Shown here: positions 37,853 through 60,589 of the stretch, one piece after another
How the letters are laid out: every line of letters begins with the position of its first letter
How positions within the stretch are numbered: position 1 is the first letter of the stretch
Source: an uncultured Bacteroidales bacterium
GTDB taxonomy: Bacteria; Bacteroidota; Bacteroidia; Bacteroidales; UBA932
Length of the DNA: 64,000 nucleotides
Direction: 5' to 3'
NCBI GenBank assembly: GCA_947179325.1
Contig: CAMXAU010000014.1
Location: forward strand, 1,532 to 65,531
Translations under genes and position numbers: made by a program
Notes under the pieces: model-generated
The model's database searches: none
The model's input: only the letters and a program-made list of their open reading frames with translations
What the model was told of the DNA's origin: nothing

Positions 37853-38942
37853 GCCTGTTTCACTTTTCGCCCAGGCCGGCTTGGGACCATGGGTGCCGGA
37901 TGTATCCGAAACATCATTCACTGTCAATTGGGAGACTCCTGATTCTCAGCTTGTCAGGGTCGAGGTTGTCAAAGACGGTGCTGCCGATACCCTGAACTTC
38001 TATCAGACAAGATACGGCCGTAGTCTTGTCGGCACCAGCCATTCGGTAAAGGTTACAGGCCTTGAAGCCGGTACAAGATACGCCTACCGCGTCTGCGGGA
38101 TAAAGGTGCTGGACGAGTCCCAGCCATATCAGCTTGTATATGAAAAGGAGGAGAAGAAAGGGGAGTGGCACGGCATTGTCACCCTGGACAGCAAGGCACC
38201 TGTGTGCCGTTTCTCCATGGTGAATGACATACATGGCGACAAAGAACTGTTTGCTGAACTGTTCAAGGGGATTTCGCCGCAGGACATGGATTTCATGCTC
38301 ATGAATGGTGACATGGTGTCTTACATGACTTCGATTGATGTTGTCAAGGACTGCATAATATCCCCGGTGGAGACACTGCTGCATGATGTCCCGATGCTCT
38401 ACGCAAGAGGCAACCATGAGGGCCGCGGCCAGGACTTCTGGCGTTTTGAGGAAGTCTCCCCGTCGCGTGACGGAAAGGCCTGGTATGCATTCAGGCAGGG
38501 ACCGGTCGCCTTTATAGTGATAGACTGCGGCGAGGACAAGCCGGACGGGCATCCTGCATATTGCGGAAATGCGCATTTCGACCAGTACCGCGCAGAAGAG
38601 GCTGAATGGCTGAGAAGCGTGACCAAAGAAAAATGGTTCAGGACTGCGCCCTACAAGGTCTGTGTGTCGCATATACCGATGTCACTTGAAGAGGATTCAT
38701 GGTATACACAGAAACAATTGCACGAGACAATGCTTCCTATACTTAACAAGGCCGGCGTGGACCTCATGCTCAGCGCGCATTTCCACCGCCATGTGTTCGT
38801 GCCGGAGGGAAAATGCGGCAACAGTTTCCCTATCATCGTGAATGACTGCGATGAACGTCTTGACTTTGTCTGTGACGGCAGGAAAGCGAAGCTGGAAATC
38901 TATGACCGTGATGGCAATGCTGTCCATGAATATGAATTTTGA
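37809..38942 (+). CDS. Purple-acid-phosphatase-like metallophosphoesterase (FN3 + calcineurin-like)
   Basis: SPI signal ending LFA-Q; NDIH, NGDMV, RGNHE, SHIP, SAHFH metal motifs. Confidence 0.88.
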   Translation: MKTSHFLYVILLNLLPVSLFAQAGLGPWVPDVSETSFTVNWETPDSQLVRVEVVKDGAADTLNFYQTRYGRSLVGTSHSVKVTGLEAGTRYAYRVCGIKVLDESQPYQLVYEKEEKKGEWHGIVTLDSKAPVCRFSMVNDIHGDKELFAELFKGISPQDMDFMLMNGDMVSYMTSIDVVKDCIISPVETLLHDVPMLYARGNHEGRGQDFWRFEEVSPSRDGKAWYAFRQGPVAFIVIDCGEDKPDGHPAYCGNAHFDQYRAEEAEWLRSVTKEKWFRTAPYKVCVSHIPMSLEEDSWYTQKQLHETMLPILNKAGVDLMLSAHFHRHVFVPEGKCGNSFPIIVNDCDERLDFVCDGRKAKLEIYDRDGNAVHEYEF

Positions 38943-38965
38943 TCTACGGAAAATCCCCATTTATA

Positions 38966-40684
38966 ATGTGTATTAAATTGTTTTCTTCGAAAAGCTTTGG
39001 CCTCATTGCTGTCATCCTGATGCTGGCGGCGTGCAGCCCGCGGAAGACCTCCAGGCCTTTCCATGTGATACCTTATCCGCAGGAAGTTGAATTCCAGGAT
39101 GGTGTGTTTGACATTGCAGGTGCACGGTTTACGGTCGCTGCAGGAATTGACGCAATGGCAGAAGACTATATACAGTCATTCGCAGACCGCCTGGAGGCAG
39201 TTACGGGCAAGCACAATGCAATCCGCCGCGGAACAGCCGAGAGGGGAGTCGTCTTTGTGCTTGACGAGACGCTCGGGCAGGAAGCATACACAATCGATGT
39301 CACCCGAAGGTGCGCCAGGATCTCGGCATCTTCCTACAGCGGCTTTGTGTATGCCTTGCAGACGGTCGGCCAGATGCTTCCGGTGGAGTACTATGGCGGG
39401 GCAAGGTCGAAGGCAGACTTTGTCCTGCCGTGTGTCTCCATCAGCGATTCTCCGCGATTCCCGTACCGCGGCCTGCTTCTGGACGTGGGACGCCAGTATT
39501 TCAGCGTGGAGGAACTGAAGAGGGTTCTTGACATCATGTCTGTCTATAAGGCCAATGTCTTCCACTGGCATCTTAATGAGGATGCGGGGTGGCGCATGGA
39601 GATCAAGAAGTATCCGCGGCTGACCGAAGTCGGGTCGGTGCGCAGCGCAAGCCAGACAGATTTTGACCCTACGCATCTTGACGGAGTGCCGCAGAGCGGC
39701 TTCTATACCCAGGATGACATGCGTGAAGTTGTTGCCTATGCCGCAAAGCTTGGCATAACCGTTATCCCGGAGCTTGACCTTCCCGGACATATGCTCAGTG
39801 CATTGGCCTCATACCCTGAACTGGGATGTACGGGAGGTCCATATGAGGTGGCATGTACGTGGGGAGTGAAAAAGGATGTCCTGTGTGTAGGCAAGGAGGA
39901 GACATTCACCTTCCTTGAGGATGTCCTGACCGAGCTGCTGGATATATTTCCGTCGGAGTATATCAACATCGGAGGCGATGAAGTCCCGAAAGACCGCTGG
40001 AAGGCATGTCCTCACTGTCAGGCGCGCATAAGGGAGCTTGGCCTTAAAGATAAGGACGGGCATACCGCCGAGCAGTATCTCCAGAACTATGTGACAGCGC
40101 GTATGCAGAGCTTTCTTGCAAAGCACGGCCGCAAGATTATAGGCTGGGAGGAGATTCTTGAAGGAGAACTTTCGGAAGGAGTCACAGTGATGTCATGGAA
40201 AGGTACGGAAGAGGGCGTGGATGAACGCATATGGAACTACAATACCATAATGAGTCCCCGGGGCTACATGTATATTGACCGCTATCAGTCGCATGACCAG
40301 GACCATGAGCCATTTTCAATCGGAGCATATCTTCCTGTGGAACGCGTGTACGAATATGAACCTTACAAAGGTGTTCCGGAGTCCGGCAAGGACAAGATAC
40401 TTGGAGTGCAGGCAAACCTGTGGGGAGAGTATATCCGCACAGAGGAATATATGGAGTATATGCTTCTCCCGCGCCTGGCCGCTCTCAGCGAGGTTCAGTG
40501 GTGCACTCCGGAGAACCGCCAGTATCCGAGATTTGTAGAGTCGATGGACCATCATCGTGAAATCTATGGGCAGAAAGGGCTTACCTATGCCAAACACCTG
40601 TGGGGCATAGTGGGGCTTCCGGGGGCGGAATACCCGGCAAGGACTCCGGAAGAGATTGAAGAATACTGGGCATCCATGGAATAG
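38966..40684 (+). CDS. GH20 beta-N-acetylhexosaminidase (lipoprotein)
   Basis: D.PRFPYRG.LLDVGR, FHWHLNED.GWR, PELDLPGH, NIGGDE, GVQANLW.EY; lipobox LAAC. Confidence 0.95.
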   Translation: MCIKLFSSKSFGLIAVILMLAACSPRKTSRPFHVIPYPQEVEFQDGVFDIAGARFTVAAGIDAMAEDYIQSFADRLEAVTGKHNAIRRGTAERGVVFVLDETLGQEAYTIDVTRRCARISASSYSGFVYALQTVGQMLPVEYYGGARSKADFVLPCVSISDSPRFPYRGLLLDVGRQYFSVEELKRVLDIMSVYKANVFHWHLNEDAGWRMEIKKYPRLTEVGSVRSASQTDFDPTHLDGVPQSGFYTQDDMREVVAYAAKLGITVIPELDLPGHMLSALASYPELGCTGGPYEVACTWGVKKDVLCVGKEETFTFLEDVLTELLDIFPSEYINIGGDEVPKDRWKACPHCQARIRELGLKDKDGHTAEQYLQNYVTARMQSFLAKHGRKIIGWEEILEGELSEGVTVMSWKGTEEGVDERIWNYNTIMSPRGYMYIDRYQSHDQDHEPFSIGAYLPVERVYEYEPYKGVPESGKDKILGVQANLWGEYIRTEEYMEYMLLPRLAALSEVQWCTPENRQYPRFVESMDHHREIYGQKGLTYAKHLWGIVGLPGAEYPARTPEEIEEYWASME

Positions 40685-40764
40685 CCCTGCCGGGATGCGG
40701 GCTTTGCCCTCAATCTCGGTATAAATCACCAGTATAAGAATTAAGCAACTAAACACTAACTGCA

Positions 40765-42219
40765 ATGAATAATATCCTAAAATCATTAGCTGTCTGCGCT
40801 GCAGCAATAGTGCTTGCCGGCGCGGCTGTCTCCTGCACACAGGAGAACTCAAAGATAATAAAGACTGAAATCCCGGCCCGCTCTGCCGGACAGGAAGATG
40901 TAATCGGACTCAGGCTTGCTCCGATGGATACCGTCAGAATCGGTTTCGTCGGTCTCGGCGGCCGTGGCTCGTATGCCCTTTACAGATACCTTTCAGTTCC
41001 ATGGACCAAGATTGTTGCACTTTGTGACATAGAGCCTGACAGGGTCGAGAAGAATGTGAAGTTTCTTAAGGAACATGATATTGAAGTCGCGGCCACGTAC
41101 ACTGGAGACAGCGGATTCAAGGAACTTTGCCGTCGCGGCGACATCGATCTTGTCTATATCTGTACCGACTGGGCCAATCATGCTCCTGTCGCTCTTGAAG
41201 CCCTGAACAACGGGAAGAATGTGGCATGCGAGGTGCCTTCTGCCACTTCCCTTGAAGAATGCTGGGCACTTGTGGATGCGGCCGAGAAGAACCGCCGCCA
41301 CTGCATGATGCTCGAGAACTGCTGCTATGACTTCTTTGAACTTTCTGCCCTGGAGATGGCACGTAATGGCGTATTCGGGGAGGTCGTCCATGCGGAAGGA
41401 GCCTACTGCCATAACCTCACCGACTATTGGGACGGCTACTGGAGGAACTGGCGCCTCGATTTCAACAGCAAGCATAAGGGAGATGTATATCCGACACATG
41501 GTCTCGGACCTGTCTGCCAGGTCCTGAACATCCATAGGGGAGACCGTATGAAGACTCTTGTTGCTATGGACACTCCGTCTGTAAACGGTGTGAAGTCCGT
41601 AAAGAGGTACCAGGGCATCGATATGCCTGATTTCAAGAACGGAGACCTTACGGCAACAATGATTCTTACAGAAAAGGGCAAGTCCATCCTCATTGAACAT
41701 GATGTCATGACCCCGCGTCCGTACAACAGGATGTATCAGCTCGTCGGAACCGAAGGCTATGCGGCAAAATATCCGATAGAGCAGTGGAGCGTCAGCAAGG
41801 GACAGGCTGATTCATTGGGACTTTTCATTGAAGAGGATGCCGCAGGTGGCGACGGCCGCATGACAGAGCGTGACCGCATTGATTTCCATGGTGCGCTGCC
41901 GGCGGATGTTGTGGAAAGGCTTCAGAAAAAATATCCGACCCCTATCCTGGACAAGGACCTTGAGGAGCTTGCAAAGCGTGTCGGCGGGCACGGCGGAATG
42001 GACTTCCTCATGGACTACCGCCTCATCTACTGCCTGCACTACGGGCTTCCTCTTGACATGGACGTATATGACCTTGCGGAATGGTGCTGCATCTCTGAGC
42101 TTGGTGCAATATCCATAGAAAACGGCTGTGCGCCGGTTGAGGTCCCTGACTTCACGCGCGGTGCATGGGACAAGGTTGACGGATTCAGATATGCATTCGC
42201 GGACGGGTCTTTCAGATAG
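40765..42219 (+). CDS. GH109 NAD+-dependent alpha-N-acetylgalactosaminidase-like (Gfo/Idh/MocA fold)
   Basis: GFVGLGGRG, CEVP, ENCCY, YPTHG, GGHGGMD. Confidence 0.88.
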   Translation: MNNILKSLAVCAAAIVLAGAAVSCTQENSKIIKTEIPARSAGQEDVIGLRLAPMDTVRIGFVGLGGRGSYALYRYLSVPWTKIVALCDIEPDRVEKNVKFLKEHDIEVAATYTGDSGFKELCRRGDIDLVYICTDWANHAPVALEALNNGKNVACEVPSATSLEECWALVDAAEKNRRHCMMLENCCYDFFELSALEMARNGVFGEVVHAEGAYCHNLTDYWDGYWRNWRLDFNSKHKGDVYPTHGLGPVCQVLNIHRGDRMKTLVAMDTPSVNGVKSVKRYQGIDMPDFKNGDLTATMILTEKGKSILIEHDVMTPRPYNRMYQLVGTEGYAAKYPIEQWSVSKGQADSLGLFIEEDAAGGDGRMTERDRIDFHGALPADVVERLQKKYPTPILDKDLEELAKRVGGHGGMDFLMDYRLIYCLHYGLPLDMDVYDLAEWCCISELGAISIENGCAPVEVPDFTRGAWDKVDGFRYAFADGSFR

Positions 42220-42228
42220 ACATCGGAA

Positions 42229-45207
42229 ATGAATATTAGGATTGGTTTAAAAGTATGCCTGCTGGCCATTCTTATGATGGCCGGCGGCATTGTCTCCCTC
42301 GCCCAGGTGTCCGTAGCCGGAATCGTTACGGACAAGGCGACGGGAGAGCCTTTGGTCGGGGTCAGCGTGGCCGTGCAGGGTACATCTGCAGGTGTGGTCA
42401 CTGACATTGACGGAAGATTCCGCGCAGATGTCCCCGAAGATGCTTCTCTTATATTCGGCTATCTCGGCTACAGGACCCTAACAGTTCCGGTAGACGGCAG
42501 GAAGATGCTTGAAATTGTCATGGAATCTGACATAAATACTCTTGACGAAGTTGTCCTGATGGGATACTCTTCCATGAAGAAGACAGAGCTTTCAAGTTCG
42601 GTCGTCTCTGTGCAGGGGGACAGGCTGAGGGACATCGTTACGTCTGATCTCGGCACTATGCTGCAGGGCAAGGTTGCCGGTGTCGTTGTCACCAATTCTT
42701 CGGGTGCCCCGGGTTCCGGCTCGACAATCCGAATACGCGGTACAGGCAGCATCGCGGCAAGTTCTGACCCTCTATATGTGGTGGACGGAGTGGTCGGAGG
42801 GACATTCAGCCCTAACGATGTAGAGACTATCACGGTCTTGAAGGATGCCGGTTCTACAGGTATATATGGTGCCTCCGGAGCCGGTGGAGTCATTGTGGTG
42901 ACTACGAAGCAGGCAAAGAACGGCCAGGAGCCGTCAGTGGACTTCAAGGCGCAGGTAGGGGTGAAGCAGATGCTCACCGGCCGCTTCCATATGATGGATG
43001 CCTCGGAACTGTATGATCTTTACAAGTCCATAATGTCTTCCGGGGCAATGAAGAGCTATCCGGAAAAGCTCCGTACGCAGAATTTCGACTGGATAAAGGA
43101 TATGGAGAGGACCGGTGTCACACAGAACTACTGGCTCTCTGCAAGCGGAAGCCTGAAAAAGATGAATTTCCTTGTAAGCCTGGACTATTACGACGAGGAC
43201 GGCACTCAGAGGGAATCTGCATACAACAGGATTTCCGGAAGGGTGAATGTCGGGGCAGAGATCGCCAGGAACCTGACGCTCAACGCAAGGGTAAGCTACA
43301 CCCAGTCAAAGACAGTTGAAGGCACGGGGCTGACCAGCTATAACCAGCTTCCGTGGAACAATCCGTATGACCAGAATACCGGCAAATACATGTACCTTTC
43401 ATCAGCCGTGCGTCCTGACAATGGAGAGCTGTGGTATGGACGTGAGGCTGTCAATCCGCTGTATGCCTCATCTGTCAATCCGAACCCGTACGGTGTCTCC
43501 AAGTCATTTGTCGGAGACCTCCAGCTGAGCTGGGCAGTCACGGACTGGCTGACAGTGACCTCGACCAACAGATATTCAACCGGCAGTACCCTCAACAAGT
43601 CTGTCGTTGTCCCGGAGGCCTACAATGCCACATGGCCTGACGGTAAGATCAGCCAGGATATTTCATGGAGCAACTCTTTCTGCACCACAAATATCATCAA
43701 ATACTTTGACACCTTCAATGGCGTCCACAGCGTGTCCGCGCTTGCCGGATATGAATACGGCTACAGCTCGGACGACTATATGAATGTCATTGCCTCCGGT
43801 CTGAAAAACGGCCTGCAGGTCCTCAACGGAACGGTTGCGGAGAACGTCTACGGGACAAAGACCGAGATGGCAAGCTGGTCGGCATTCGCACAGGCGCAGT
43901 ACAGCTACAAGGAAAAATATATCCTGAATGCCGTCTTCCGTGCAGACGCCTCATCTGTATTCGCACCAAAGAACAGGGTCGGATATTTCCCTTCCGTCTC
44001 TGCCGCATGGCTTGTGAGCGGTGAGGATTTCATGAAAAACCAGAATGTCGTCTCTTTCCTCAAGATAAGGGCAAGCTACGGAATGACCGGAAACTCAGGT
44101 CTCGGCGCGTATAAATATCTTGACCTCTATGGCTTTTCTGACAAGTTCCAGTACCAGGGTGTGCAGGGGGCTGTCCCGATGACTGTTGCCAATCCGTATC
44201 TCCACTGGGAGACAGCCGTGATGAAGAACCTCGGTGTCGACATCTCGTTCGGCAACTGGCTCACCCTTAATGTGGATGTCTACAGCAACCTCAACAAGGA
44301 CCTTCTCCTGTCGGTGCCGCTCGCGCTCAGCTCAGGCTTTGACAGCCGCACGGAGAATACCGGAAAAATACGCAACAGCGGAGTCGAGGTGCAGGTAACT
44401 TCAAACAACTTCAGCCGCAGGAACTTCAAATGGTCCACATCGCTGAATCTCGGACACAACAAGAATGTGGTTGTCTATCTTCCTGAACATAAGGATATAA
44501 TTGTCTCCCACTCGCAGGGCGACCAGATATATCGCGAGGGAGAGCCGCTCTACAGCTGGTACATGCCTAAATGGCTCGGTGTGGACCCTGCAAACGGAAA
44601 TCCGCAGTGGGAGATCCTGACGCGTGACGAAGACGGCAACATCACGGGACGCGAGCCCGGGAGCAACCTGAACAATACGCGCGATGTCCAGATTGTCGGG
44701 TGCGCCCAGCCTAAGCTGACCGGAGGCATGCTGAACTCCTTCAATGTCTATGGGGTCGAGATCAGTGCAAACCTGCAGTTCGTCTACGGCAACGATGTCT
44801 ACAACGATACCCGCCGCTATATAGACTCTGACGGAGCATACATCGACTACAATTTCATGTCCCTTGACAACGGTCTTGGATGGAGCCGCTGGGAGAAGGA
44901 AGGTGACATTGCGACCCATCCAAGGGCGAGGGTGGGAGGAAACAGGCGTTCCAATGAGCTGACTTCCCGCTATCTTGAGGACGGAAGCTACCTGCGCATA
45001 AAGAATGTGACGATAAGCTGGCCTCTGCCTGCCAATGTGACCAAGAAGATGCATTTCCGCAGCTTCAGGATTTTCCTCTCGGGGGATAATCTCTATACTT
45101 TCACAAAATTCTCGGGCATGGATCCGGAAGTCGGGGTGAAGGGGCTGTTCAGCTACAACTACCCTGTCTCAAGGACATTCTCGCTCGGCCTTGACATCAA
45201 ATTCTGA
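42229..45207 (+). CDS. SusC-like TonB-dependent transporter
   Basis: LKDAGSTGIYGASGAGGVIVVTTK plug; C-terminal YPVSRTFSLGLDIKF. Confidence 0.95.
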   Translation: MNIRIGLKVCLLAILMMAGGIVSLAQVSVAGIVTDKATGEPLVGVSVAVQGTSAGVVTDIDGRFRADVPEDASLIFGYLGYRTLTVPVDGRKMLEIVMESDINTLDEVVLMGYSSMKKTELSSSVVSVQGDRLRDIVTSDLGTMLQGKVAGVVVTNSSGAPGSGSTIRIRGTGSIAASSDPLYVVDGVVGGTFSPNDVETITVLKDAGSTGIYGASGAGGVIVVTTKQAKNGQEPSVDFKAQVGVKQMLTGRFHMMDASELYDLYKSIMSSGAMKSYPEKLRTQNFDWIKDMERTGVTQNYWLSASGSLKKMNFLVSLDYYDEDGTQRESAYNRISGRVNVGAEIARNLTLNARVSYTQSKTVEGTGLTSYNQLPWNNPYDQNTGKYMYLSSAVRPDNGELWYGREAVNPLYASSVNPNPYGVSKSFVGDLQLSWAVTDWLTVTSTNRYSTGSTLNKSVVVPEAYNATWPDGKISQDISWSNSFCTTNIIKYFDTFNGVHSVSALAGYEYGYSSDDYMNVIASGLKNGLQVLNGTVAENVYGTKTEMASWSAFAQAQYSYKEKYILNAVFRADASSVFAPKNRVGYFPSVSAAWLVSGEDFMKNQNVVSFLKIRASYGMTGNSGLGAYKYLDLYGFSDKFQYQGVQGAVPMTVANPYLHWETAVMKNLGVDISFGNWLTLNVDVYSNLNKDLLLSVPLALSSGFDSRTENTGKIRNSGVEVQVTSNNFSRRNFKWSTSLNLGHNKNVVVYLPEHKDIIVSHSQGDQIYREGEPLYSWYMPKWLGVDPANGNPQWEILTRDEDGNITGREPGSNLNNTRDVQIVGCAQPKLTGGMLNSFNVYGVEISANLQFVYGNDVYNDTRRYIDSDGAYIDYNFMSLDNGLGWSRWEKEGDIATHPRARVGGNRRSNELTSRYLEDGSYLRIKNVTISWPLPANVTKKMHFRSFRIFLSGDNLYTFTKFSGMDPEVGVKGLFSYNYPVSRTFSLGLDIKF

Positions 45208-45214
45208 CACAGCC

Positions 45215-46948
45215 ATGAAAAAGTACATAATATTGATTTTTGCGGCCCTGTCTGCTCTCTCATGCAACCTGGACTATTTCCCTTACGACAAAGTGTCGTC
45301 CGGAAGCATGCAGCACGTATCCTCTGCCACTACGGCCACGGACGGAAACTACGCCCTCTTCAAGGCCCCGGTGGAGTACAGCGGATTCTACACTGTAGGC
45401 AATACCTATATCCGCCACTACATGCTCATGTCCGAGCTGAAAGGCGACAATATCCTCATGTCTGCAAAGAGCACAGACCCGCTGTTTCTTGACGCAGTGC
45501 TTGAAGACTCGTCAAGCGATACGAATGTGGAGTATTTCTGGTTCATATCATACAAGATAGCCTATTCGGCATCTGTGGTCATCAATATGATAGACGACAA
45601 CACCGATGATGCCGTGCTGCGCCATATCAAGGGGGAGAACCTCGTGATGAGGGCACTGGCCCACATGAACCTGTGCCATTTCTTTGCAAACCCGTACATC
45701 TGGGACAACGGTGCCTCCCCCGGTGTCGTCATAAATCTCGGGGACGGGAACACTGATGTCTCAAGGGCTTCTGTTGCGCAGGTCTATGACCGTGTCGAGA
45801 AAGACCTTCTTGATGCTGTACGGTGCATGGACGGAGGTTCGCGCAGAGGCAACAGAGGGTATATGGACAAAAGCACTGCCCAGGGCTTCCTTGCGCGCCT
45901 GTATCTGTACATGGGACGCTATGAGGACTGCATAAGGGTAGTGGATGAAATGCTGGCCGGGGCAGATCCGGGCTCCATGCTGGATGAGGACTATGAGCAT
46001 CTTTTCCAATTCAGCCGCGAGTCAAAGGAAGTGCTGTGGTGCGTGGGCATGATTGACAATACGACTGACATTGCAGGGGAGCAGGGCGTGCTCGGCTCGA
46101 TGTACTGGTCGAACGGAGATCCCGGTGACGGCTCCGGATGGGCTGAGATATATTACTCGCAGCCGCTGATCGACCTTTATGAACGTCATGCCGGAGACAT
46201 GAGGCAGGCGACGATGCGTGTGCCTAAGCACATCTCCACAACCGGAAGGAAGATGATATACTGGCCGGTGCCTACCGATGACGGCTTCTACGAGAACTAT
46301 ATAGACAGGGACCCTTCATATGATGAGTCAACCGGCAGATACACATGTACATATGTCCGTACTGATGCCGCAGGCAATGAAAAGGGCGAGAGGTATGCGG
46401 TAGAAACGGAGATTGTGGATACATATCCGCGCAATTATATCGTCATGGACGGGAAGAAGCAATATGTGACGGTGACTGATTCGCTCGGATGCCGCACAGG
46501 TTCAGGCGGAAACGTCTATCCTCTGAACTACATGAAGAAATTCTCATGCCAGGAAGGCAGGATCACCAATCTCGCATCTCCGATAATGCTCCGCTGGGGC
46601 GAGCTTATCCTTGACAGGGCAGAGGCGTATGCCCATCTCGGGAATGTCTCCAAGGCGCTTGATGACGTTAACGTGATGCGCAGACGTGCCGGACTCGGGG
46701 AAGATGACATGTTCACTCTCTCCAATATGGAGGCGCGCGGCTATGGCGATGTGCTGGATGTCGTGCTGGATGAACGCCGTCTTGAGCTGTGCTTTGAAGG
46801 CTTCAGGGTGCTGGACCTCAGGAGGAACATGCGGGACATGGACCGCCGCTATGCCGGCAGGCAGATATGGGAGGTCGTGCCGTACAATGACACGAGGCTC
46901 ATGTACCAGATACCGCGCGCTGAAACCAATGTCAGCGGAATACAATAA
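45215..46948 (+). CDS. SusD-like lipoprotein
   Basis: Lipobox ALSC; GENLVMRAL, MLRWGELILDRAEA, ERRLELCFEG. Confidence 0.92.
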   Translation: MKKYIILIFAALSALSCNLDYFPYDKVSSGSMQHVSSATTATDGNYALFKAPVEYSGFYTVGNTYIRHYMLMSELKGDNILMSAKSTDPLFLDAVLEDSSSDTNVEYFWFISYKIAYSASVVINMIDDNTDDAVLRHIKGENLVMRALAHMNLCHFFANPYIWDNGASPGVVINLGDGNTDVSRASVAQVYDRVEKDLLDAVRCMDGGSRRGNRGYMDKSTAQGFLARLYLYMGRYEDCIRVVDEMLAGADPGSMLDEDYEHLFQFSRESKEVLWCVGMIDNTTDIAGEQGVLGSMYWSNGDPGDGSGWAEIYYSQPLIDLYERHAGDMRQATMRVPKHISTTGRKMIYWPVPTDDGFYENYIDRDPSYDESTGRYTCTYVRTDAAGNEKGERYAVETEIVDTYPRNYIVMDGKKQYVTVTDSLGCRTGSGGNVYPLNYMKKFSCQEGRITNLASPIMLRWGELILDRAEAYAHLGNVSKALDDVNVMRRRAGLGEDDMFTLSNMEARGYGDVLDVVLDERRLELCFEGFRVLDLRRNMRDMDRRYAGRQIWEVVPYNDTRLMYQIPRAETNVSGIQ

Positions 46949-46968
46949 CTGATAACCCAATAACTCTT

Positions 46969-48492
46969 ATGAACAGAAAGACAATTATACTTACCATGCT
47001 TGCAGTTCTCCTGCTTTCCTGCGGGAAAGAGCCGGTACCTGCAGGCATCCCTGTGGTAAAGCCCGGAATTGACATAGAGTCAGGCATGGACGGGATATAT
47101 GCTTCGCGGCAGATTTTCCAGCCAAAGGAAGTTGACGTCCCGGTGGAGCATTTCATCGCTCCTGAGCCTCCGTTCCCTTATGATGTCGTCTATTCCTATG
47201 ACGAGACCAATTTCCCGAATCCGGAACGCGGCCCTTATTTCAATGTCGCCTACAACTTCAATGACGGGAATGTCCCTGAAGTCGCTACAGTGGAGCGGCT
47301 CGCAAGCGCAAGGGAAGACGGCACATCGCTTGTGTTCACCTTCCTGTACCTGTGCGACTTTGTGGACAGGGAGATTCTTTCCGATGATGTCCTCAGGGTG
47401 ATGAGGGAGCATTTTGTGAACCTCAGGCAGTCCGGCTGCAAGGCGGTGTGCAGGATTGCATACTCATGGAACGACAAATGGCCTGTGCAGGAGCCTCCTG
47501 CGGACATGATTGTCAGCCATGTAAACCAGCTCAAGCCTATCTTCCAGGAATTCGGCGATGTGATCTATGTGATGCAGGCCGGCCTTATAGGCACATACGG
47601 AGAGTGGGCATATACAACCAATGTGAAATCTGAAGAGGATCATGCCAAGGTAGTGAAAGCCTTGCTTGAAGCCTTGCCGGAAAACAGGGCTGTCGCAATC
47701 AGGACTCCGTCATGGAAACAGAGGCTTCTACAGGAGTTCAACGGTGACGGCAAAGCTGTTACGGAGAAGGATTCGATAACTGTTGCAGATGCCTTCGGCC
47801 CTTCATACAAGGCAAGGATGGCCATACATAACGACTGTGCGTTTGTGAATGGAAATGACGGAGGAACATTCGGAAACGTGTTTTCAAGAATGTATGTCAA
47901 TGCAGAGTCCAATTACTACCCGTACGGAGGGGAGTCGTGCTACCAGGGAAATAACGAATACTGCGAGTGTACTCCGTCATATGTCAACCTGAGGACCTAT
48001 CACTGGTCCTATCTGAGCAACCACTATGCAATCAGGGAGTTATGGCAGAACGAGGGCTGCTACAACGATGCGAGCACTCGTGTCGGATACAGATTTGTCT
48101 TGAACGGTGCCGCTTTCCATGGTACATTTGCATCAGATGAGGACTTCGGGATAAGCCTGTGCCTGTCCAACTACGGGTTCGCATCGCTCATAAACAAGAG
48201 GGATATGGAGTTTGTCATCGTCAACCAGAAAAGGCCGAATGAGAAATATGTCTACCCGCTGGACAAGGACCCGCGTGAATGGAAAGGAGGCAAGGCATAT
48301 GTCTTCACGGACCGTATTGTCCTGCCTTCGGCGCTTCAGAAAGGTGCAGAGTACAGCCTGTACCTGAACCTGCCTGACGAGTCCCCGTTCCTGCATGACA
48401 ACCCGGACTACAGTGTCAGGTTTGCAAACAAGTACACATGGGACGAAAGCACGGGATATAATCTGATAGCCTCATTTAAAGCAGAATATTAG
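46969..48492 (+). CDS. DUF4874/DUF4832-like lipoprotein (putative glycoside hydrolase fold)
   Basis: Lipobox LLSC; FPNPERG, QAGLIGTYGEW, HNDCAF, GGES, VGYRFVL. Confidence 0.75.
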   Translation: MNRKTIILTMLAVLLLSCGKEPVPAGIPVVKPGIDIESGMDGIYASRQIFQPKEVDVPVEHFIAPEPPFPYDVVYSYDETNFPNPERGPYFNVAYNFNDGNVPEVATVERLASAREDGTSLVFTFLYLCDFVDREILSDDVLRVMREHFVNLRQSGCKAVCRIAYSWNDKWPVQEPPADMIVSHVNQLKPIFQEFGDVIYVMQAGLIGTYGEWAYTTNVKSEEDHAKVVKALLEALPENRAVAIRTPSWKQRLLQEFNGDGKAVTEKDSITVADAFGPSYKARMAIHNDCAFVNGNDGGTFGNVFSRMYVNAESNYYPYGGESCYQGNNEYCECTPSYVNLRTYHWSYLSNHYAIRELWQNEGCYNDASTRVGYRFVLNGAAFHGTFASDEDFGISLCLSNYGFASLINKRDMEFVIVNQKRPNEKYVYPLDKDPREWKGGKAYVFTDRIVLPSALQKGAEYSLYLNLPDESPFLHDNPDYSVRFANKYTWDESTGYNLIASFKAEY

Positions 48493-48494
48493 TC

Positions 48495-50306
48495 ATGAAG
48501 AAACTTTATATACTTATTGCGGCGGCTCTTGCCCTGCTCTCATGCACAAAGCAGGAGACCGACACAGTCCCGTTCATATTCCGGGGCACCACTGTCGCCG
48601 AATTCAACAGCCAGGCTGCAGACGACAATTATTACTATTACCTGACAGGCACAATCGCAGAAATCATCGATGCCGCCAACTCCCATTTCATCCTTCAGGA
48701 CGGGACTGGTGAAGTGCTTGTCTACGGCCTGTGGCGGAACATCCATGGGAAGAGAATCCGGAACATGGGGGACTACAAGGCCGGTGACAACATTACAATC
48801 GCTGCATTGAAAGGCAAGTTCGCCGATGAGCCTTATGCCAAAGAAGCGTATGTCGTGGATGTGGACAAGGCAAAGATGTGGGTGACCCCTACCGATACCC
48901 ACCTTCCTGACGCAGGCGGTGAAATCGAGCTGAAGGTGTTCACTGACGGGGCTTTCACACTTGCCGCGTCCGAGGACTGGATAAAGGTGGGGGAGGCTGA
49001 CGGCAATATAATACCGGTTGAAATCGCTGCAAACGAAAGCATATTTGTGCGTTTCGGCTACATCAATGTAAGGTCAGCTGACATGACCATAAGGGTAAAG
49101 GTCACCCAGGACGGCTATCTTCCGCAGCTCAGCACGATGAAGGAAGCAATTCTTATGGACTATGCCAGGGTCGAGGGAACCGTCCTCGCCATTGTGGAAG
49201 ACGGCTATCTTCTTGCAGACCGGACAGGTGTCCTTTTTGTCTCTACGACAAAATTCAACGGGATATACCCCGGAGCCACATTGTCCGTGACAGGAAGCCT
49301 CGGGACAGCCGACTATATGACAAGGCTGACTCCAGAGCTTACGGCTGCCGTGCAGATTGAACCTTTGCCTTCTGCGGAGCCGAGAGTCCTTGGCACAGAT
49401 GAAATCAACTCCATAATTGCCGGGGCATCCTCCAAGGACCCGGGCAAGGCCGGAAACCTGGAATATGAATTTGTAAGGGTAGGCGGCACCATTGTGCTCA
49501 TTGACGGCAAGACAAGGCTTGTGTCAGACGGCAAGGCAATCAATGTCGAGCCGTACAAGGCCGGGGCGGAACTTAATTTTGACGACCTCAACGGCCATCA
49601 GCTCGAGCTGGACGGCTACATTGTCTCGCTTTCGGGCGGCACTCTCAAAATGATTGTCACGGGCTATGAGGATGTTCCTGTCGTGAGCCGGATAACAATA
49701 GACGGAGACTATTCCGACTGGGACGGCCTGGAGGACATGACACCTGGCAATGACATGAGTGCATCGCACAACCTGAAGCCGGTGGTGAAGCTGCACTGCG
49801 AGAACGGCTATGTCTACGGCTACATAAGGGTGGACAAGAGCGAAGAGAACGGAGGTTTCCCTAAAGACCCTGAAAGCCAGTATCTCCTTAAGATTGCCGG
49901 ACGCTTCTATGTGTGGATTGACAATGATGACACTGCTGAGGGCCAGGGCGGCGGATGGCTGTTCGATCCTCAGCGCTATGACAATGTCATCTGCTACCGC
50001 ATCACAAGCACAGCCGGAGGCTGGACAGGCTGGTCGACAGTTGCCCCGCGCGCAAATGAATACTATGGTGCATGCGTTGTCGGCAACAAGCATACGGACG
50101 ATGAAAGCAACAAGGACACAGTCGGGTATATGGCGACAACTGTTGACGGGGACATCCTTGAGGGCGAATTCTCGTTCCTTGCAGCCAAAGTCGGTCTTTT
50201 CGGAAAGGACAAGGCCGTGATAGGGCTTGAGATAGGATGGGACAACGGATTCAACACCGGTGCCGCCTCTCTCGGAAAGAAAGGTTATGAAATAAATTTG
50301 AATTAG
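48495..50306 (+). CDS. Surface lipoprotein: OB-fold-like repeats, BACON-like domain, C-terminal DOMON/CBM9-like module
   Basis: Lipobox LLSC; DGTGEVLVYG; ASEDWIKV; ITIDGDYSDW. Confidence 0.65.
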   Translation: MKKLYILIAAALALLSCTKQETDTVPFIFRGTTVAEFNSQAADDNYYYYLTGTIAEIIDAANSHFILQDGTGEVLVYGLWRNIHGKRIRNMGDYKAGDNITIAALKGKFADEPYAKEAYVVDVDKAKMWVTPTDTHLPDAGGEIELKVFTDGAFTLAASEDWIKVGEADGNIIPVEIAANESIFVRFGYINVRSADMTIRVKVTQDGYLPQLSTMKEAILMDYARVEGTVLAIVEDGYLLADRTGVLFVSTTKFNGIYPGATLSVTGSLGTADYMTRLTPELTAAVQIEPLPSAEPRVLGTDEINSIIAGASSKDPGKAGNLEYEFVRVGGTIVLIDGKTRLVSDGKAINVEPYKAGAELNFDDLNGHQLELDGYIVSLSGGTLKMIVTGYEDVPVVSRITIDGDYSDWDGLEDMTPGNDMSASHNLKPVVKLHCENGYVYGYIRVDKSEENGGFPKDPESQYLLKIAGRFYVWIDNDDTAEGQGGGWLFDPQRYDNVICYRITSTAGGWTGWSTVAPRANEYYGACVVGNKHTDDESNKDTVGYMATTVDGDILEGEFSFLAAKVGLFGKDKAVIGLEIGWDNGFNTGAASLGKKGYEINLN

Positions 50307-50315
50307 TGTAGAGAG

Positions 50316-51251
50316 ATGAAAAGATTCTTTTATTTAGTAGTGGTTCTGGCGGTGATACCTGTTCTGTCGTGTACAGAACAGGCGTCACTTAAATTCATTG
50401 AACAGGACGGCGTATGGGTGCCTGACCAAAGGTCGCTCACTTCATTTGCCGGCAGATTGCAGCAGGCAGACATGGCCGGGGCGTCGGCCATGATATCCAG
50501 GGCCTTTGCAGAGGCGGACAGTCTCGGTGCGCTGAAATCCACCTCTGAAACTGTCGCACGTCTTTCTGATGGACTTTATTCAAGGCTTACAGGGGAAGGG
50601 GCGTCCATGAGGGATTATGAACTTGCAGAGGCAATGCTCGGCAGGGAAGTGCTCTGCTCGACTCTTGACCCGATCGATTTCAAGAGGATTGACTACAAGC
50701 GGGGACGGCTGAACCTTAACCGCCCCGGTTTCATGGTAAATGACTTTCCTGTAGTATCGGCTGACGGGAGCGAATGCATGCTCAGGGAACTTTTTACAGA
50801 AAGGACGCTCCTTTTCATATATGGCGCAGAATGTAAAGAATGCGACAGGATGGTGAAGGATATACAGCGTTCTCCATTCATCAGAAAGGCAAAGGCAGAC
50901 TCGTCCCTGAACCTTGTCGCTCTCTATACGGGAGAAGACAGAGGTGGATTCAAGCCAGGTCTTGAGGGCTGGACCAATGTCATTGACAGGGACAATGCGG
51001 TCATTTATGAAAACGCATTTGACAGCGGAATGGTCCCGTCTTTTTATCTTATTTCTGAAAATTGCATTGTTGACCTGAAGGCTGCGCGTTCCCTGAAAGA
51101 AGTGGAAAAAGCTGATGCGGCCGCCCGCCTGACAAGCCTGGATATTGCCCTGGAGCCGTCTGAGCTGGCCTGGGGGGGGCAAGATAGCAGATGGGCAATA
51201 CATGCCCTTCAGGGACAGTTCTTACCTGACCCTGTACGAAAACGGAGGTAA
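50316..51251 (+). CDS. DUF5106/thioredoxin-like lipoprotein; N-terminal part of a frameshifted fusion with GH31
   Basis: Lipobox VLSC; NRPG..VNDF, TLLFIY.AECKEC, VPSFYLI; its last in-register residues (DIALEPSELAWGG) look like a GH31 N-terminus. Confidence 0.7.
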   Translation: MKRFFYLVVVLAVIPVLSCTEQASLKFIEQDGVWVPDQRSLTSFAGRLQQADMAGASAMISRAFAEADSLGALKSTSETVARLSDGLYSRLTGEGASMRDYELAEAMLGREVLCSTLDPIDFKRIDYKRGRLNLNRPGFMVNDFPVVSADGSECMLRELFTERTLLFIYGAECKECDRMVKDIQRSPFIRKAKADSSLNLVALYTGEDRGGFKPGLEGWTNVIDRDNAVIYENAFDSGMVPSFYLISENCIVDLKAARSLKEVEKADAAARLTSLDIALEPSELAWGGQDSRWAIHALQGQFLPDPVRKRR

Positions 51252-52635
51252 CCAGGTCCAGCCTCTCATCCTCACAAGCCATGGGCGTTATGTCTGGAGC
51301 GATCAGCCGTTCAAGTACAGTATCAGGGACGGTGTCCTCCATATCGAAGACGCACTGGCAGAAATCAACACGGCAAAGGTCGGCAGCTCTCTTGCTGATG
51401 CCTATCGTTTCGCCCAGAAGGCATTCTTCCCGGTAGAGGGCCTGCTCCCTCCTGTGGAATTCTTTGAAAAGCCTCAATGGAATACCTGGATAGAGCTTCA
51501 GTACAATCAGAACCAGAAAGATATCCTTGAGTATGCCCGTGGAATAATCCGCAACGGGCTTCCTGCCGGCATCATCATGATTGACGACACATGGCAGGAG
51601 GACTATGGCAAGTGGGTGTTCCATCCGGGCCGCTTCCCTGACCCTAAGGCCATGTGTGACGAACTGCACCGCATGGGATTCAAGGTCATGCTTTGGGTGA
51701 CTCCTTTTGTCAGCATGGACCAGTATGAAATCTGCGTAAGGGTCGGTGACGGCTTCCTCAAGAAAGAAGGGACCGGGACCTATCCTGTCTACTGGTGGAA
51801 CGGATACTCAGCTTCGATAGACTTCTCAAGCGAACAGGGATACAGATGGTTCGACGAAGAACTCGGCAGGCTCGTCGATGAGTTCGGCGTGGACGGATTC
51901 AAGTTCGATGCCGGCGACTTCAACCTCTTCCCTTCTGATGCAATCTCTGCAGGAGGCATGACTGCATGGGAATACTGCGCGGCATTTGCCGGCTTCGGCG
52001 AGAAATATCCTTACAATGAATTCCGTGCTGCATGGAAATCCGGAGGCAAGCCGCTGGTCCAGAGGCTTCACGACAAGGGACATTCATGGCAGGCTCTCAA
52101 CGCACTCATCCCTGAGATGATGGCTGCCAACCTTAACGGATACTGGTTCTGTGCCCCGGACATGATCGGGGGAGGCAGCTTCGCCTCTTTCCTGCCGGGA
52201 TGTGTGATCGACAGTGACCTTGTGGTGCGTTCCGCACAGGTCCATGCTCTCATGCCTATGATGCAGTTCTCTGTGGCTCCATGGAGGATTCTTGACAAGG
52301 AACATCTTGATGCGGTGCTTGAGGCCGTCAGGATAAGGGACCGTTTCCTGGACAGGATAGTCTCCCTTATGCATAAGGCTTCGGTGTCAGGTGAGCCAGT
52401 CGTTGCACCGCTTGAGTTTTGGTTTCCTCATCAGGGGCTTGCAGAAGTGAAGAACCAGTTCATGCTCGGTCCTGACGTCATGGTTGCACCTATGACAGAG
52501 CCGGGTACTGTGCGTACTGTGGCCCTCCCTCGCGGGAAATGGCTTTCTGATGACGGTGTCATCTATGAAGGCGGCCAGGATATAACAGTTGAAGTCCCTT
52601 TGGAGAGAATCCCGTATTTCTATGCTGTTCAATGA
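51145..52635 (+). CDS. GH31 glycosidase, MYORG/NET37-like (no own start or signal; in frame with the upstream ORF if G7)
   Basis: PQWNTWIEL, MIDDTWQ, RFPDPK, nucleophile KFDAGD, acid/base PDMIGG, MMQFSVAPW, QFMLG. Confidence 0.88.
   Translation: MPWSRLSWPGGGKIADGQYMPFRDSSYLTLYENGGNQVQPLILTSHGRYVWSDQPFKYSIRDGVLHIEDALAEINTAKVGSSLADAYRFAQKAFFPVEGLLPPVEFFEKPQWNTWIELQYNQNQKDILEYARGIIRNGLPAGIIMIDDTWQEDYGKWVFHPGRFPDPKAMCDELHRMGFKVMLWVTPFVSMDQYEICVRVGDGFLKKEGTGTYPVYWWNGYSASIDFSSEQGYRWFDEELGRLVDEFGVDGFKFDAGDFNLFPSDAISAGGMTAWEYCAAFAGFGEKYPYNEFRAAWKSGGKPLVQRLHDKGHSWQALNALIPEMMAANLNGYWFCAPDMIGGGSFASFLPGCVIDSDLVVRSAQVHALMPMMQFSVAPWRILDKEHLDAVLEAVRIRDRFLDRIVSLMHKASVSGEPVVAPLEFWFPHQGLAEVKNQFMLGPDVMVAPMTEPGTVRTVALPRGKWLSDDGVIYEGGQDITVEVPLERIPYFYAVQ
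51172..51179 (+). repeat. G8 homopolymer at the frameshift junction
   Basis: GCC T GGGGGGGG C AAG; removing one G joins 50316.. to ..52635 in frame. Confidence 0.9.
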
Positions 52636-53170
52636 GACTGAGCTGATTGTAAAGATGAAGAATGACTCCCGCGAGGCGTTCTTCATCTTTTATCAGAAAT
52701 ACCTGCCGCTGGTGGAGAATTTCGCTTTGTCGCTGGTCAAGGAACCTGATGTGGCAAAGGAGATTTCCCAGAATGTCTTCATAAAGATCTGGGACAGGAG
52801 ACGGAAACTGGAGAATGTGGACTCTTTCAAGTCATACCTTTTCAGGATGACAAAGAATGCAGTCTATGACTATTTCCGTTCATGCAGGGGCAGGGCATTG
52901 GTAAGCCTTGACGAGATGTCGGAGAATATCAGCCTGGGCGATTTTTCAATAGACACGGGCGGCCCGGACATAGACTCCAAGAATCTGCTGATGAAAGTCC
53001 TCATTGAGATGGACAGGCTTCCTGAGAAATGCAGGAAGGTGTTCATCATGAGCAGGATGCTTGGAATGAAGAACCAGGAGATTGCAGACACTCTTGCCAT
53101 TTCGCTCAAGACCGTCGAATACCATATAACCAACGCCTTGGCGATTTTAAGAAAAAAAGTGAAAATATGA
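52622..53170 (+). CDS. ECF RNA polymerase sigma-70 factor (PUL type)
   Basis: AKEISQNVFIKIW, FKSYLFRMTKN, LPEKCRKVF.MSR, EIADTLAIS.KTVE.HI..AL; start overlaps the GH31 3' end. Confidence 0.95.
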   Translation: MLFNETELIVKMKNDSREAFFIFYQKYLPLVENFALSLVKEPDVAKEISQNVFIKIWDRRRKLENVDSFKSYLFRMTKNAVYDYFRSCRGRALVSLDEMSENISLGDFSIDTGGPDIDSKNLLMKVLIEMDRLPEKCRKVFIMSRMLGMKNQEIADTLAISLKTVEYHITNALAILRKKVKI

Positions 53171-57738: not shown

Positions 57739-57749
57739 ACATGCCGTAT

Positions 57750-60527: not shown

Positions 60528-60552
60528 AGGATATTTTAGCATTTGTACCGGG

Positions 60553-60589
60553 GGGGCTTGAGTAAAACTTTTTTATTCAAGCCCCTTTT
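60553..60589 (+). terminator. Intrinsic terminator ending the second PUL
   Basis: GGGGCTTGAGTAAAA-CTT-TTTTATTCAAGCCCC followed by TTTT. Confidence 0.8.

What the first reader, a model, noticed from the sequence alone, without database searches (positions are those of the whole stretch)
51140..51260. G8 tract frameshift: candidate phase-variable switch
Seen: G8 gives ...ELAWGGQD and a stop at 51251; G7 gives ...ELAWGGKIADGQYMPF and a single 772-aa ORF (50316-52635). WGG..G..MPF resembles the N-terminus of Bacteroidetes GH31 homologs as I recall them, and the GH31 frame has no credible own start. Established: poly-G tracts drive slipped-strand phase variation but are also common sequencing errors.
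Basis: partly seen in the sequence, partly recalled or inferred. Interest (0 to 1): 0.65.

Follow-up and report, generated by a model that had tools for sequence, protein, structure and literature searches.

The report
Poly-G on/off switch in glycosidase gene
A run of eight G's has knocked a sugar-cleaving enzyme gene of a mouse-gut Muribaculaceae bacterium out of frame, and otherwise identical strains carry 7, 8, 9 or 10 G's at this spot, so it is most likely a slippage-driven on/off switch, a type I found no report of in this bacterial order.

Summary
A G8 run at 51172-51179 splits a gene into a 311-aa lipoprotein ORF (50316-51251) and a GH31 ORF ending at 52635. G7 restores one 772-aa protein.

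That protein has a lipoprotein signal, a thioredoxin-like CxxC domain and a GH31 alpha-galactosidase. It is the last gene of a polysaccharide-utilisation locus.

The fused form is ancestral: more than 30 full-length homologues exist at 50-85% identity. Independent strains of the window's own species carry G7 (in frame) or G8 (out of frame).

In a sister species, four tract lengths sit on identical protein backgrounds: G7 on 23 contigs, G8 (in frame) on 51, G9 on 177 and G10 on 5. Three strain backgrounds each have in-frame and out-of-frame alleles.

- No out-of-frame allele has a second lesion.
- dN/dS is 0.03-0.04.
- The tract is the only internal indel in 4.3-6.7 kb within-species alignments.
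- The GGG codons persist although synonymous sites are saturated.
- A related lineage that lost this tract has a second variable G8, 60 codons upstream.

An assembly error is very unlikely. A slipped-strand phase-variable locus caught OFF is the best reading. Mixtures within one sample and switching rates could not be measured, because no raw reads were available.

The parts
51172..51179 (+). Poly-G tract, G8 here. It covers the W-G-G codons (TGG GGG GGC in frame at G7). This is the variable element.
   Evidence: for the sequence. Lengths G7/G8 (GGC-type) and G7/G8/G9/G10 (GGG-type) are seen in relatives.
50316..52635 (+). The whole gene. At G7 it is one 772-aa lipoprotein made of a signal peptide with lipobox (VLSC), a helical DUF5106-like region, a thioredoxin-like CxxC domain and a GH31 alpha-galactosidase.
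   Evidence: 772-aa reading. (full-length homologues of 762-786 aa at 50-85% identity). P0146 is the in-frame allele of the same species. The AlphaFold model of ortholog P0003 has pLDDT 86.6 and pTM 0.85.
50316..51251 (+). OFF-state product 1 (311 aa): the complete signal peptide, helical region and thioredoxin-like domain (286 aa), followed by 25 out-of-frame residues.
   Evidence: The CxxC and cis-Pro motifs are invariant. The profile hits Bacteroides thioredoxin-like proteins 3eur (5e-18), 4yod (2e-14, a 287-aa stand-alone protein) and 3ewl.
51202..52635 (+). OFF-state GH31 body (477 aa from ATG 51202; the frame is open from TTG 51145). It has no signal peptide and lacks the first conserved strand.
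   Evidence: PF01055 7.6e-29, PF21365 1.3e-14. (8j53 'GH31 alpha-galactosidase' 1.2e-146; MYORG 7qqf 3.6e-53).
52622..53170 (+). ECF sigma factor gene. Its ATG (52622) overlaps the GH31 stop codon (52633-52635) by 14 nt. FecR-type anti-sigma (53208-54197), an STN-domain SusC (54235-57738) and SusD (57696-59540) follow.
   Evidence: The same 14-nt overlap appears in the gene calls of L001, L007, L010, L012, L022 and L029.
38939..50306 (+). Upstream genes of the same-strand PUL: GH20 (38939-40684), GH109 (40765-42219), SusC (42229-45207), SusD (45191-46948), DUF4874/DUF4832 (46969-48492) and a BACON-domain protein (48495-50306).
   Evidence: Pfam scans.

Best explanation
The tract is a hypermutable homopolymer inside the coding sequence of a PUL lipoprotein gene. 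Replication slippage adds or removes G's, which is the inferred mechanism and the established behaviour of poly-G tracts. The gene then flips heritably between two states. ON is G7 in the window's lineage and G8 in lineages whose second Gly codon is GGG; it makes an approximately 86-kDa thioredoxin-like/GH31 alpha-galactosidase fusion. OFF is any other length. The window's genome is in the +1 OFF state. In OFF, translation from the normal start makes only the thioredoxin-like lipoprotein with a short nonsense tail. The GH31 body, which would remove alpha-linked galactose in the glycan breakdown pathway of this PUL, is not exported and probably not made. Shown here: the tract length varies among otherwise identical genes, the frame toggles, no other damage accumulates, purifying selection persists, and the tract is conserved at synonymous sites. 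Inferred: slippage as the mechanism, reversibility on short time scales, loss of enzyme in OFF, and an adaptive (contingency) role.
For: (1) The fused architecture is ancestral. More than 30 full-length homologues have an in-frame WGG(K/R)(I/V)ADG junction.

(2) DNA of 25 related loci was read. In-frame: G7 (L008) and G8 (L009-L013). Out of frame: G8 (window, L007, L022-25), G9 (L026-31, L033) and G10 (L001-06).

(3) One sister species has four alleles with 0 amino-acid differences on either side of the tract. ON G8 is P0158 (27 contigs, plus 13 and 11 on variant backgrounds). +1 is P0154 'WGGEDSR' (165 contigs, plus 12 for its one-residue variant P0162). -1 is P0159 'WGGR*' with P0160 'MGGK' (23 and 14). 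+2 is P0009 'MGGGK' (5).

(4) Three strain backgrounds of that species, marked by K189E, V347L and K451N, each have ON and OFF alleles.

(5) Every lineage examined has both ON and OFF alleles.

(6) No OFF allele has any other stop or frameshift.

(7) dN/dS is 0.03-0.04 for GH31 and 0.09-0.19 for the N-terminal part, even between two OFF alleles, with dS up to more than 1. Within OFF lineages the GH31 half shows 20 nucleotide differences and only 1 amino-acid change.

(8) In within-species alignments of 4.3-6.7 kb, the tract is the only indel away from contig ends.

(9) The tract's GGG codons are kept in 9 lineages. None of 46 other conserved Gly columns is all-GGG. Only 4 of 167 fourfold columns keep one codon. 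A Gly four codons away varies freely.

(10) Relatives with a broken tract (TGGGGCGGN) are all in frame: L014-L020 and L034-L037.

(11) The L014 lineage lost this tract but has another G8 at L-G-G-V codons, 60 codons upstream. It has an ON form (L014, P0201) and +1 OFF forms ('ARLGGGME*', 11 contigs).
Against: No read-level data were available for any sample, so a mixture of tract lengths inside one population, the hallmark of phase variation, has not been seen. Switching rates are also unknown.

Six samples of one clone all show G10. However, they were retrieved by exact protein identity, which forces that result.

OFF alleles outnumber ON about 3:1 among the listed contigs. That would also fit a conditionally dispensable gene being lost repeatedly.

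Parsimony needs only 4 changes if reversions are allowed, and no reversion is directly demonstrated.

Contig counts come from partial cluster listings (15 of up to 41 members) and may include related samples.

Slippage-based phase variation is not an established mechanism in Bacteroidales in the literature I could search.
Confidence: 0.7

Rival explanations
1. Mutational hot spot without a switch function. The G run is simply fragile, and the gene is dispensable in many guts, for example in laboratory mice. It is repeatedly and in effect irreversibly inactivated, so the window holds a young pseudogene.
For: OFF alleles predominate, about 235 against about 70 contigs among listed cluster members. 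All DNA-level OFF alleles are insertions. One clone shows G10 in six samples. Reversion is not directly shown.
Against: No OFF allele in 7 lineages has a second lesion. dN/dS is 0.03-0.04, and 19 of 20 within-OFF-lineage changes in the GH31 half are synonymous. The tract has been retained in 9 lineages despite saturated synonymous sites, where a merely harmful tract should have been broken by any G-to-A/C/T third-position change. A new tract arose in the lineage that lost the old one. Lengths of -1, +1 and +2 sit on identical backgrounds, which implies stepwise movement in both directions.
Confidence: 0.18
2. Assembly or sequencing error. The organism really has G7, and the extra G is a homopolymer artefact of this assembly.
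For: Homopolymers are error-prone. The window's own reads could not be examined. Logan contigs of runs X4 and X7 break at the tract at 2-6x depth.
Against: The identical +1 allele occurs in independent strains of the species that differ by 4-7 residues (P0143, P0152). Out-of-frame lengths are reproduced across assemblers and sources (SPAdes/ENA, MEGAHIT, Logan, NCBI MAGs). The same run length G8 is called ON in one lineage and OFF in another, so there is no systematic length bias. In the sister species, a distribution of G9 > G8 > G7 > G10 does not fit errors around one true length. The rest of the window has long intact ORFs.
Confidence: 0.05
3. Recoding or a split-gene reading. OFF alleles still yield functional GH31, either by transcriptional slippage or ribosomal frameshifting on the G run, or by independent initiation at ATG 51202 giving a cytoplasmic enzyme.
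For: Purifying selection is maintained on the GH31 half of OFF alleles. ATG 51202 is conserved and lies 47 nt upstream of the ORF1 stop. In G10 and G7 alleles of one lineage, an ATG abuts the tract (MGGGK/MGGK).
Against: In-frame alleles exist in every lineage, so no recoding is required. OFF alleles occupy both wrong frames (+1, and +2/-1), which one programmed frameshift could not rescue. A product starting at MPF lacks the signal peptide and the first conserved strand of the N-terminal beta domain; W288-G290 lies in strand 287-289 of the model. Natural 520-aa homologues all carry their own lipoprotein signal.
Confidence: 0.07

Closest known systems
Poly-G/C contingency loci of Campylobacter jejuni and Neisseria meningitidis (for example hmbR and hpuAB, with a poly-G tract in the ORF; PMC3786947, PMC8355987, review PMC11868660)
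   Same: An intragenic G run of 7-10 bases. Single-base gains and losses toggle the reading frame. Several lengths occur among otherwise identical strains. The genes act at the host interface.
   Different: The host is a gut commensal of the order Bacteroidales. The tract sits 286 codons into the gene at a domain boundary, not near the 5' end, so OFF still makes a complete thioredoxin-like lipoprotein. Switching rates and phenotypes are unmeasured here.
Gardnerella NanH3 sialidase, slipped-strand mispairing at a homopolymer in the ORF (Kurukulasuriya et al. 2021, cited as ref. 62 in PMC11868660)
   Same: A glycoside hydrolase that acts on host-type glycans, switched by a homopolymer inside its own coding sequence.
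   Different: A different phylum (Actinomycetota) and enzyme family (GH33 against GH31), and not part of a SusC/SusD PUL. I did not read the primary paper.
Invertase-mediated phase variation of SusC/SusD and PUL genes and capsule loci in Bacteroides fragilis and B. thetaiotaomicron (Nakayama-Imaohji 2009, cited in PMC11868660; 10.1101/2025.06.24.661302)
   Same: The same biological target, namely heritable ON/OFF heterogeneity of glycan-utilisation functions in gut Bacteroidales.
   Different: The mechanism is site-specific DNA inversion between inverted repeats by a recombinase. Here there is no recombinase and no inverted repeat, only a simple repeat.
Mycobacterium tuberculosis glpK homopolymer (7C) frameshift phase variation (10.1101/717272; PMC10334774)
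   Same: A reversible frameshift at a homopolymer in a metabolic enzyme gene. It was detected largely by population genomics as recurrent indels on near-identical backgrounds.
   Different: That enzyme is a cytoplasmic kinase and the phenotype is drug tolerance. The organism and tract composition also differ.
Bacterial GH31 alpha-galactosidases of PDB 8j50-8j53 and human MYORG (PMC9491548)
   Same: The GH31 body aligns over its full length with these structures (E 1e-146 to 4e-148). The KFD nucleophile motif and the PDMIGGG acid/base motif are conserved.
   Different: Those enzymes have no N-terminal thioredoxin-like domain and no poly-G tract is reported. The preference of the bacterial enzymes for alpha-1,4-galactobiose is my recollection, not read here.

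Membership tests
Simple-sequence-repeat (homopolymer) phase-variable / contingency locus | A homopolymeric tract of about 7 or more bases inside an ORF or promoter | tested here: met
   G8 at 51172-51179 inside the ORF.
Simple-sequence-repeat (homopolymer) phase-variable / contingency locus | Tract length differs among otherwise identical or near-identical strains, and the indels are confined to the tract | tested here: met
   G7, G8, G9 and G10 occur on backgrounds with 0 amino-acid differences. Three strain backgrounds each have ON and OFF. The tract is the only internal indel in 4.3-6.7 kb.
Simple-sequence-repeat (homopolymer) phase-variable / contingency locus | Length changes toggle an otherwise intact reading frame | tested here: met
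   All OFF alleles keep both halves open: 286-291 aa upstream of the tract and 483-484 aa downstream.
Simple-sequence-repeat (homopolymer) phase-variable / contingency locus | High-frequency, reversible switching within a clonal population (mixed lengths in reads, measured rates) | not testable with these tools
   No raw-read run holds the window; only Logan contigs were available.
Simple-sequence-repeat (homopolymer) phase-variable / contingency locus | Expression or phenotype follows the tract length | not testable with these tools
   No proteome or RNA data were available.
Simple-sequence-repeat (homopolymer) phase-variable / contingency locus | The tract is maintained by selection (codon choice kept against synonymous drift) | tested here: met
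   The first Gly codon is GGG in all 9 lineages and the second is GGG or GGC. None of 46 other conserved Gly columns is all-GGG, and 4 of 167 fourfold columns are invariant. Neighbouring codons vary. Lineages are not fully independent, so this is supportive and not a formal test.
GH31 alpha-galactosidase group of PDB 8j50-8j53 / MYORG | GH31 TIM-barrel and C-terminal domains above Pfam thresholds | tested here: met
   PF01055 scores 101.5 bits (cut-off 23.5) and PF21365 scores 54.8 bits (cut-off 24.4).
GH31 alpha-galactosidase group of PDB 8j50-8j53 / MYORG | Full-length similarity to characterised members, with a conserved nucleophile (K-x-D) and general acid Asp | tested here: met
   8j53 at 4.1e-148 over residues 282-770. 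K531-F532-D533 and D617 are invariant in 30 homologues. MYORG has K461, D463 and D520. The positional match to MYORG is by motif, not by a residue-by-residue alignment.
GH31 alpha-galactosidase group of PDB 8j50-8j53 / MYORG | Alpha-galactosidase activity and linkage preference | not testable with these tools
   This needs an enzyme assay.
Thioredoxin-like (TlpA/DUF5106-type) Bacteroidales lipoproteins | Thioredoxin fold with a CxxC motif and a cis-Pro loop | tested here: met
   YGxxCxxC and PS.YL are invariant. The profile hits 3eur, 4yod, 3ewl and ResA. The model shows a beta-alpha-beta thioredoxin-type pattern at residues 144-271.
Thioredoxin-like (TlpA/DUF5106-type) Bacteroidales lipoproteins | A Pfam family hit above the gathering threshold | tested here: not met
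   The window's protein gives Thioredoxin_2 at E 0.14 and Thioredoxin_8 at E 0.18, both below the 27-bit cut-off. DUF5106 passes only in homologue P0012, at 30.5 bits against a cut-off of 28.
Programmed ribosomal frameshift / transcriptional-slippage gene | The out-of-frame arrangement is the conserved, normal state in orthologues | tested here: not met
   In-frame alleles exist in every lineage, and OFF alleles occupy both wrong frames.

The most novel reading that the evidence does not exclude
The tract is a selected contingency switch, and one of a set of simple-repeat switches in Muribaculaceae that forms a second, recombinase-free layer of phase variation in gut Bacteroidales. At this locus it toggles between two products, not simply on and off: a thioredoxin-like lipoprotein alone, or the thioredoxin-GH31 fusion. 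Selection for switchability is strong enough that a lineage which lost the W-G-G tract evolved a new G8 60 codons upstream. The ECF sigma gene of the next PUL overlaps the GH31 stop by 14 nt, so the OFF state may also lower expression of that regulator, through loss of translational coupling or through polarity.
Probability: 0.3. Interest if true: 0.75.

Novelty: new member of a known kind. Interest (0 to 1): 0.62.

Why it matters
In gut Bacteroidales, phase variation is known in the papers I could search only as recombinase-driven DNA inversion. A slippage-type switch inside a PUL glycosidase gene would be new there. It would mean that commensal populations also diversify their glycan-degrading capacity by simple-repeat mutation.

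Such changes are invisible to inverted-repeat scans and are usually discarded as homopolymer noise or annotated as pseudogenes. For Muribaculaceae, dominant and hard-to-culture members of the mouse gut, this affects several things:
- how MAG 'pseudogenes' are read;
- how metabolic capacity is predicted from genomes;
- how strain-level differences between mouse facilities are interpreted.

The locus is also a ready test case. A common laboratory-mouse strain carries four tract lengths across hundreds of public assemblies.

Tried and rejected
**Read pile-up.** Three run searches with window stretches found only Logan contigs of related strains, with at most 0.69 of the words, and no raw reads. 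A search with L013 found nothing. Contig breaks at the tract in X4 and X7 occur at 2-6x depth and are uninformative.

**Biased or thin scans.** The search for related loci on genome contigs chose the peptide pattern [VIA]WGG[KR][IV]ADG. This spans the tract, so it could only return in-frame alleles; I used it only for taxonomy and for distant codon usage. The unbiased DNA pattern scan of metagenome contigs returned only two contigs, both OFF.

**A lead that failed.** I suspected that the 474-478-aa homologues starting at 'MPF/MPY' (P0086, P0097, P0099) marked frameshifts at W-G-G in other lineages. This was rejected. L034 and L036 have an in-frame upstream ATG with a lipoprotein signal and only TGGGGCGG, so these are gene-calling artefacts.

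**Chance.** Whether one G8 in the window exceeds chance was tested, and it does not.

**Other readings considered.** Programmed frameshifting and an independent cytoplasmic GH31 were both judged unlikely; see the rival explanations.

**The other G run.** The G7 at 60550 is the stem of a terminator-like hairpin and is not a second switch.
Full report
**What is in the window**

The + strand carries exactly eight G's at 51172-51179. ORF1 (50316-51251, 311 aa) starts with a lipoprotein signal (MKRFFYLVVVLAVIPVLSC) and ends in 25 residues of out-of-frame sequence after ...ELAWGG. The next frame is open from 51145 to 52635 and holds the GH31 TIM-barrel and C-terminal domains (PF01055 7.6e-29, PF21365 1.3e-14).

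Removing one G in silico gives one 772-aa reading, and adding one gives an immediate stop. One G8 in 64 kb is not surprising by itself: shuffles give a mean of 2.18, and G7 runs are depleted.

**Context**

The gene is the last of a same-strand polysaccharide-utilisation locus:
- GH20 (38939)
- GH109 (40765)
- SusC (42229)
- SusD (45191)
- DUF4874/DUF4832 (46969)
- a BACON-domain protein (48495)
- this gene

An ECF sigma gene starts at ATG 52622, 14 nt before the GH31 stop. A FecR anti-sigma, an STN-type SusC and a SusD follow. Record titles of related loci place the clade in Muribaculaceae or uncultured Bacteroidales.

**What the intact protein is**

A search with the read-through found more than 30 full-length proteins of 762-786 aa at 50-85% identity, all with an in-frame WGG(K/R)(I/V)ADG junction. 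The fusion is therefore ancestral.

The C-terminal 490 residues align end to end with the 'GH31 alpha-galactosidase' structures 8j50-8j53 (E down to 4e-148) and with human MYORG. The KFD and PDMIGGG motifs, which hold the catalytic aspartates in MYORG (PMC9491548), are invariant.

The N-terminal 286 residues are a helical region plus a thioredoxin-like domain with invariant CxxC. The closest solved structures are Bacteroides thioredoxin-like proteins 3eur, 4yod and 3ewl. Pfam thresholds are not reached for the window's own sequence.

Stand-alone 520-aa GH31 homologues carry their own lipoprotein signal and then I.L..GE.VWGG.I.DG..MPF. The tract therefore lies about ten residues inside the GH31 homology. 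In an AlphaFold model of ortholog P0003 (pLDDT 86.6, pTM 0.85), V287-G289 form a beta strand at the start of the GH31 N-terminal beta domain.

An OFF allele thus makes a complete thioredoxin-like lipoprotein, with the same architecture as the 287-aa protein 4yod. It leaves the GH31 body without a signal peptide and without its first strand.

**The tract varies**

I fetched DNA for 25 related loci. Two codon types exist.

| Codon type | In-frame length | In-frame loci | Out-of-frame loci |
|---|---|---|---|
| T-G7-C-AAG | G7 | L008, a 98.2%-identical strain of the window's species | G8: window, L007, L022-25 |
| T-G8-AAR | G8 | L009-L013 | G9: L026-31, L033; G10: L001-06 |

Logan contigs of three gut metagenomes with 97-98%-identical strains also have G7.

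Cluster listings then showed that every 90% cluster mixes full-length and split forms. In the L001 species, the ON protein P0158 is identical, with 0 differences on either side, to all of the split fragments:

| Tract | State | Proteins | Contigs |
|---|---|---|---|
| G8 | ON | P0158 | 27 |
| G9 | +1 | P0154 with P0155 | 165 and 74 |
| G7 | -1 | P0159 'WGGR*' with P0160 'MGGK' | 23 and 14 |
| G10 | +2 | P0009 'MGGGK' | 5 |

Three strain backgrounds of that species, marked by K189E, V347L and K451N, each occur as ON and OFF.

In the window's own species, ON alleles are P0006, P0144, P0146 and P0150. +1 alleles are the window itself, P0152 and P0143, which differ from the window by 7 and 4 residues.

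Among listed members I count roughly 70 ON and 235 OFF contigs. These are lower bounds from partial listings.

**It is neither noise nor decay**

- Within-species alignments show the tract as the only indel away from contig ends: window against L008 over 4.5 kb, L009 against L026 over 4.3 kb, and L009 against L033 over 6.7 kb.
- All OFF alleles keep both halves open.
- dN/dS is 0.03-0.04 for GH31 and 0.09-0.19 for the N-terminal part, including OFF-OFF pairs with dS of 0.45 to more than 1.
- Within OFF lineages, the GH31 half shows 20 nucleotide differences and only one amino-acid change.
- On a gene tree, ON/OFF needs at least 4 changes if reversion is allowed, and 7 if it is not.

**The tract itself is conserved**

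Across nine lineages whose synonymous sites are largely saturated, the first Gly codon is always GGG and the second is GGG or GGC. None of 46 other conserved Gly columns is all-GGG, only 4 of 167 fourfold columns keep one codon, and a Gly four codons downstream uses GGG, GGA and GGT freely.

More distant fused and stand-alone homologues use TGGGGCGGN or TGGGGAGGC and are all in frame.

The L014 lineage (a human-gut MAG) lost the W-G-G tract but has a different G8 at L-G-G-V codons, 60 codons upstream (L014 nt 2940). It has an ON form (L014, P0201) and +1 OFF forms ending ARLGGGME* on 11 contigs.

**Interpretation**

The tract is a genuine hypermutable site that flips the gene between frames, and the window's genome is in the +1 OFF state. 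I put 0.7 on a slipped-strand phase-variable (contingency) locus. The rivals are a fragile site in a conditionally dispensable gene (0.18), recoding or an independent GH31 product (0.07), and an assembly error (0.05).

Two things remain unshown: mixtures of lengths within one population, and a measured, reversible switching rate.

**Comparison with what is known**

The mechanism matches the classical poly-G contingency loci of Neisseria and Campylobacter. The nearest functional analogue is the homopolymer-switched sialidase NanH3 of Gardnerella (review PMC11868660).

In Bacteroidales, the papers I could search describe phase variation only through invertases and shufflons. Earlier notes of this scan list other poly-G/C frameshift sites in Muribaculaceae and related gut Bacteroidales. 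They are unchecked leads and not independent support, but they fit the idea of a set of such loci.

I file this as a new member of a known kind. The unusual features are the tract's position at a domain boundary and the convergent second tract.

Noticed in passing
L014:2940-2947 (CTGGGGGGGGTA, L-G-G-V codons): A second, independent G8 tract lies in the orthologous gene of a human-gut lineage that lacks the W-G-G tract. +1 alleles (proteins ending ARLGGGME*) are commoner than the in-frame form in cluster 8.
   Followed up: partly
window 50316-51170 and homologues P0003-P0037: A thioredoxin-like domain with invariant CxxC is fused N-terminally to a GH31 alpha-galactosidase. The fusion is conserved in more than 30 Bacteroidales proteins at 50-85% identity. 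I know of no function for a redox domain on a glycosidase.
   Followed up: partly
window 52622-52635: The ECF sigma gene of the next PUL starts 14 nt before the GH31 stop codon. The same overlap appears in most related loci but not in L009, where there is a 20-nt gap. The switch may therefore have polar or coupling effects on the regulator.
   Followed up: no
window 38939-52635: The PUL's enzyme set is GH20, GH109, DUF4874/DUF4832 and a GH31 alpha-galactosidase. I confirmed only the family assignments.
   Followed up: partly
L034:2376-2510; L036:2374-2510: Gene callers start several 520-aa-type GH31 genes at the conserved internal Met (MPF/MPY), although an in-frame upstream ATG with a lipoprotein signal exists. 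This makes them look truncated in protein databases.
   Followed up: yes
protein P0136 (cluster of L009 lineage): An in-frame allele has W to R at the 5' edge of the tract (ESVRGGKIADG). This changes an otherwise invariant Trp.
   Followed up: no
window 60550-60556: The only other G7 in the window is the 5' arm of a terminator-like hairpin (GGGGCTTGA...TCAAGCCCC followed by TTTT), just after the 59598-60527 gene.
   Followed up: yes
window 51137-51265 in runs X4-X7: Logan contigs of four runs of one study all end at or near the tract, at 2-9x depth. This could reflect mixed tract lengths or poor assembly of G runs, and it cannot be decided from contigs.
   Followed up: partly
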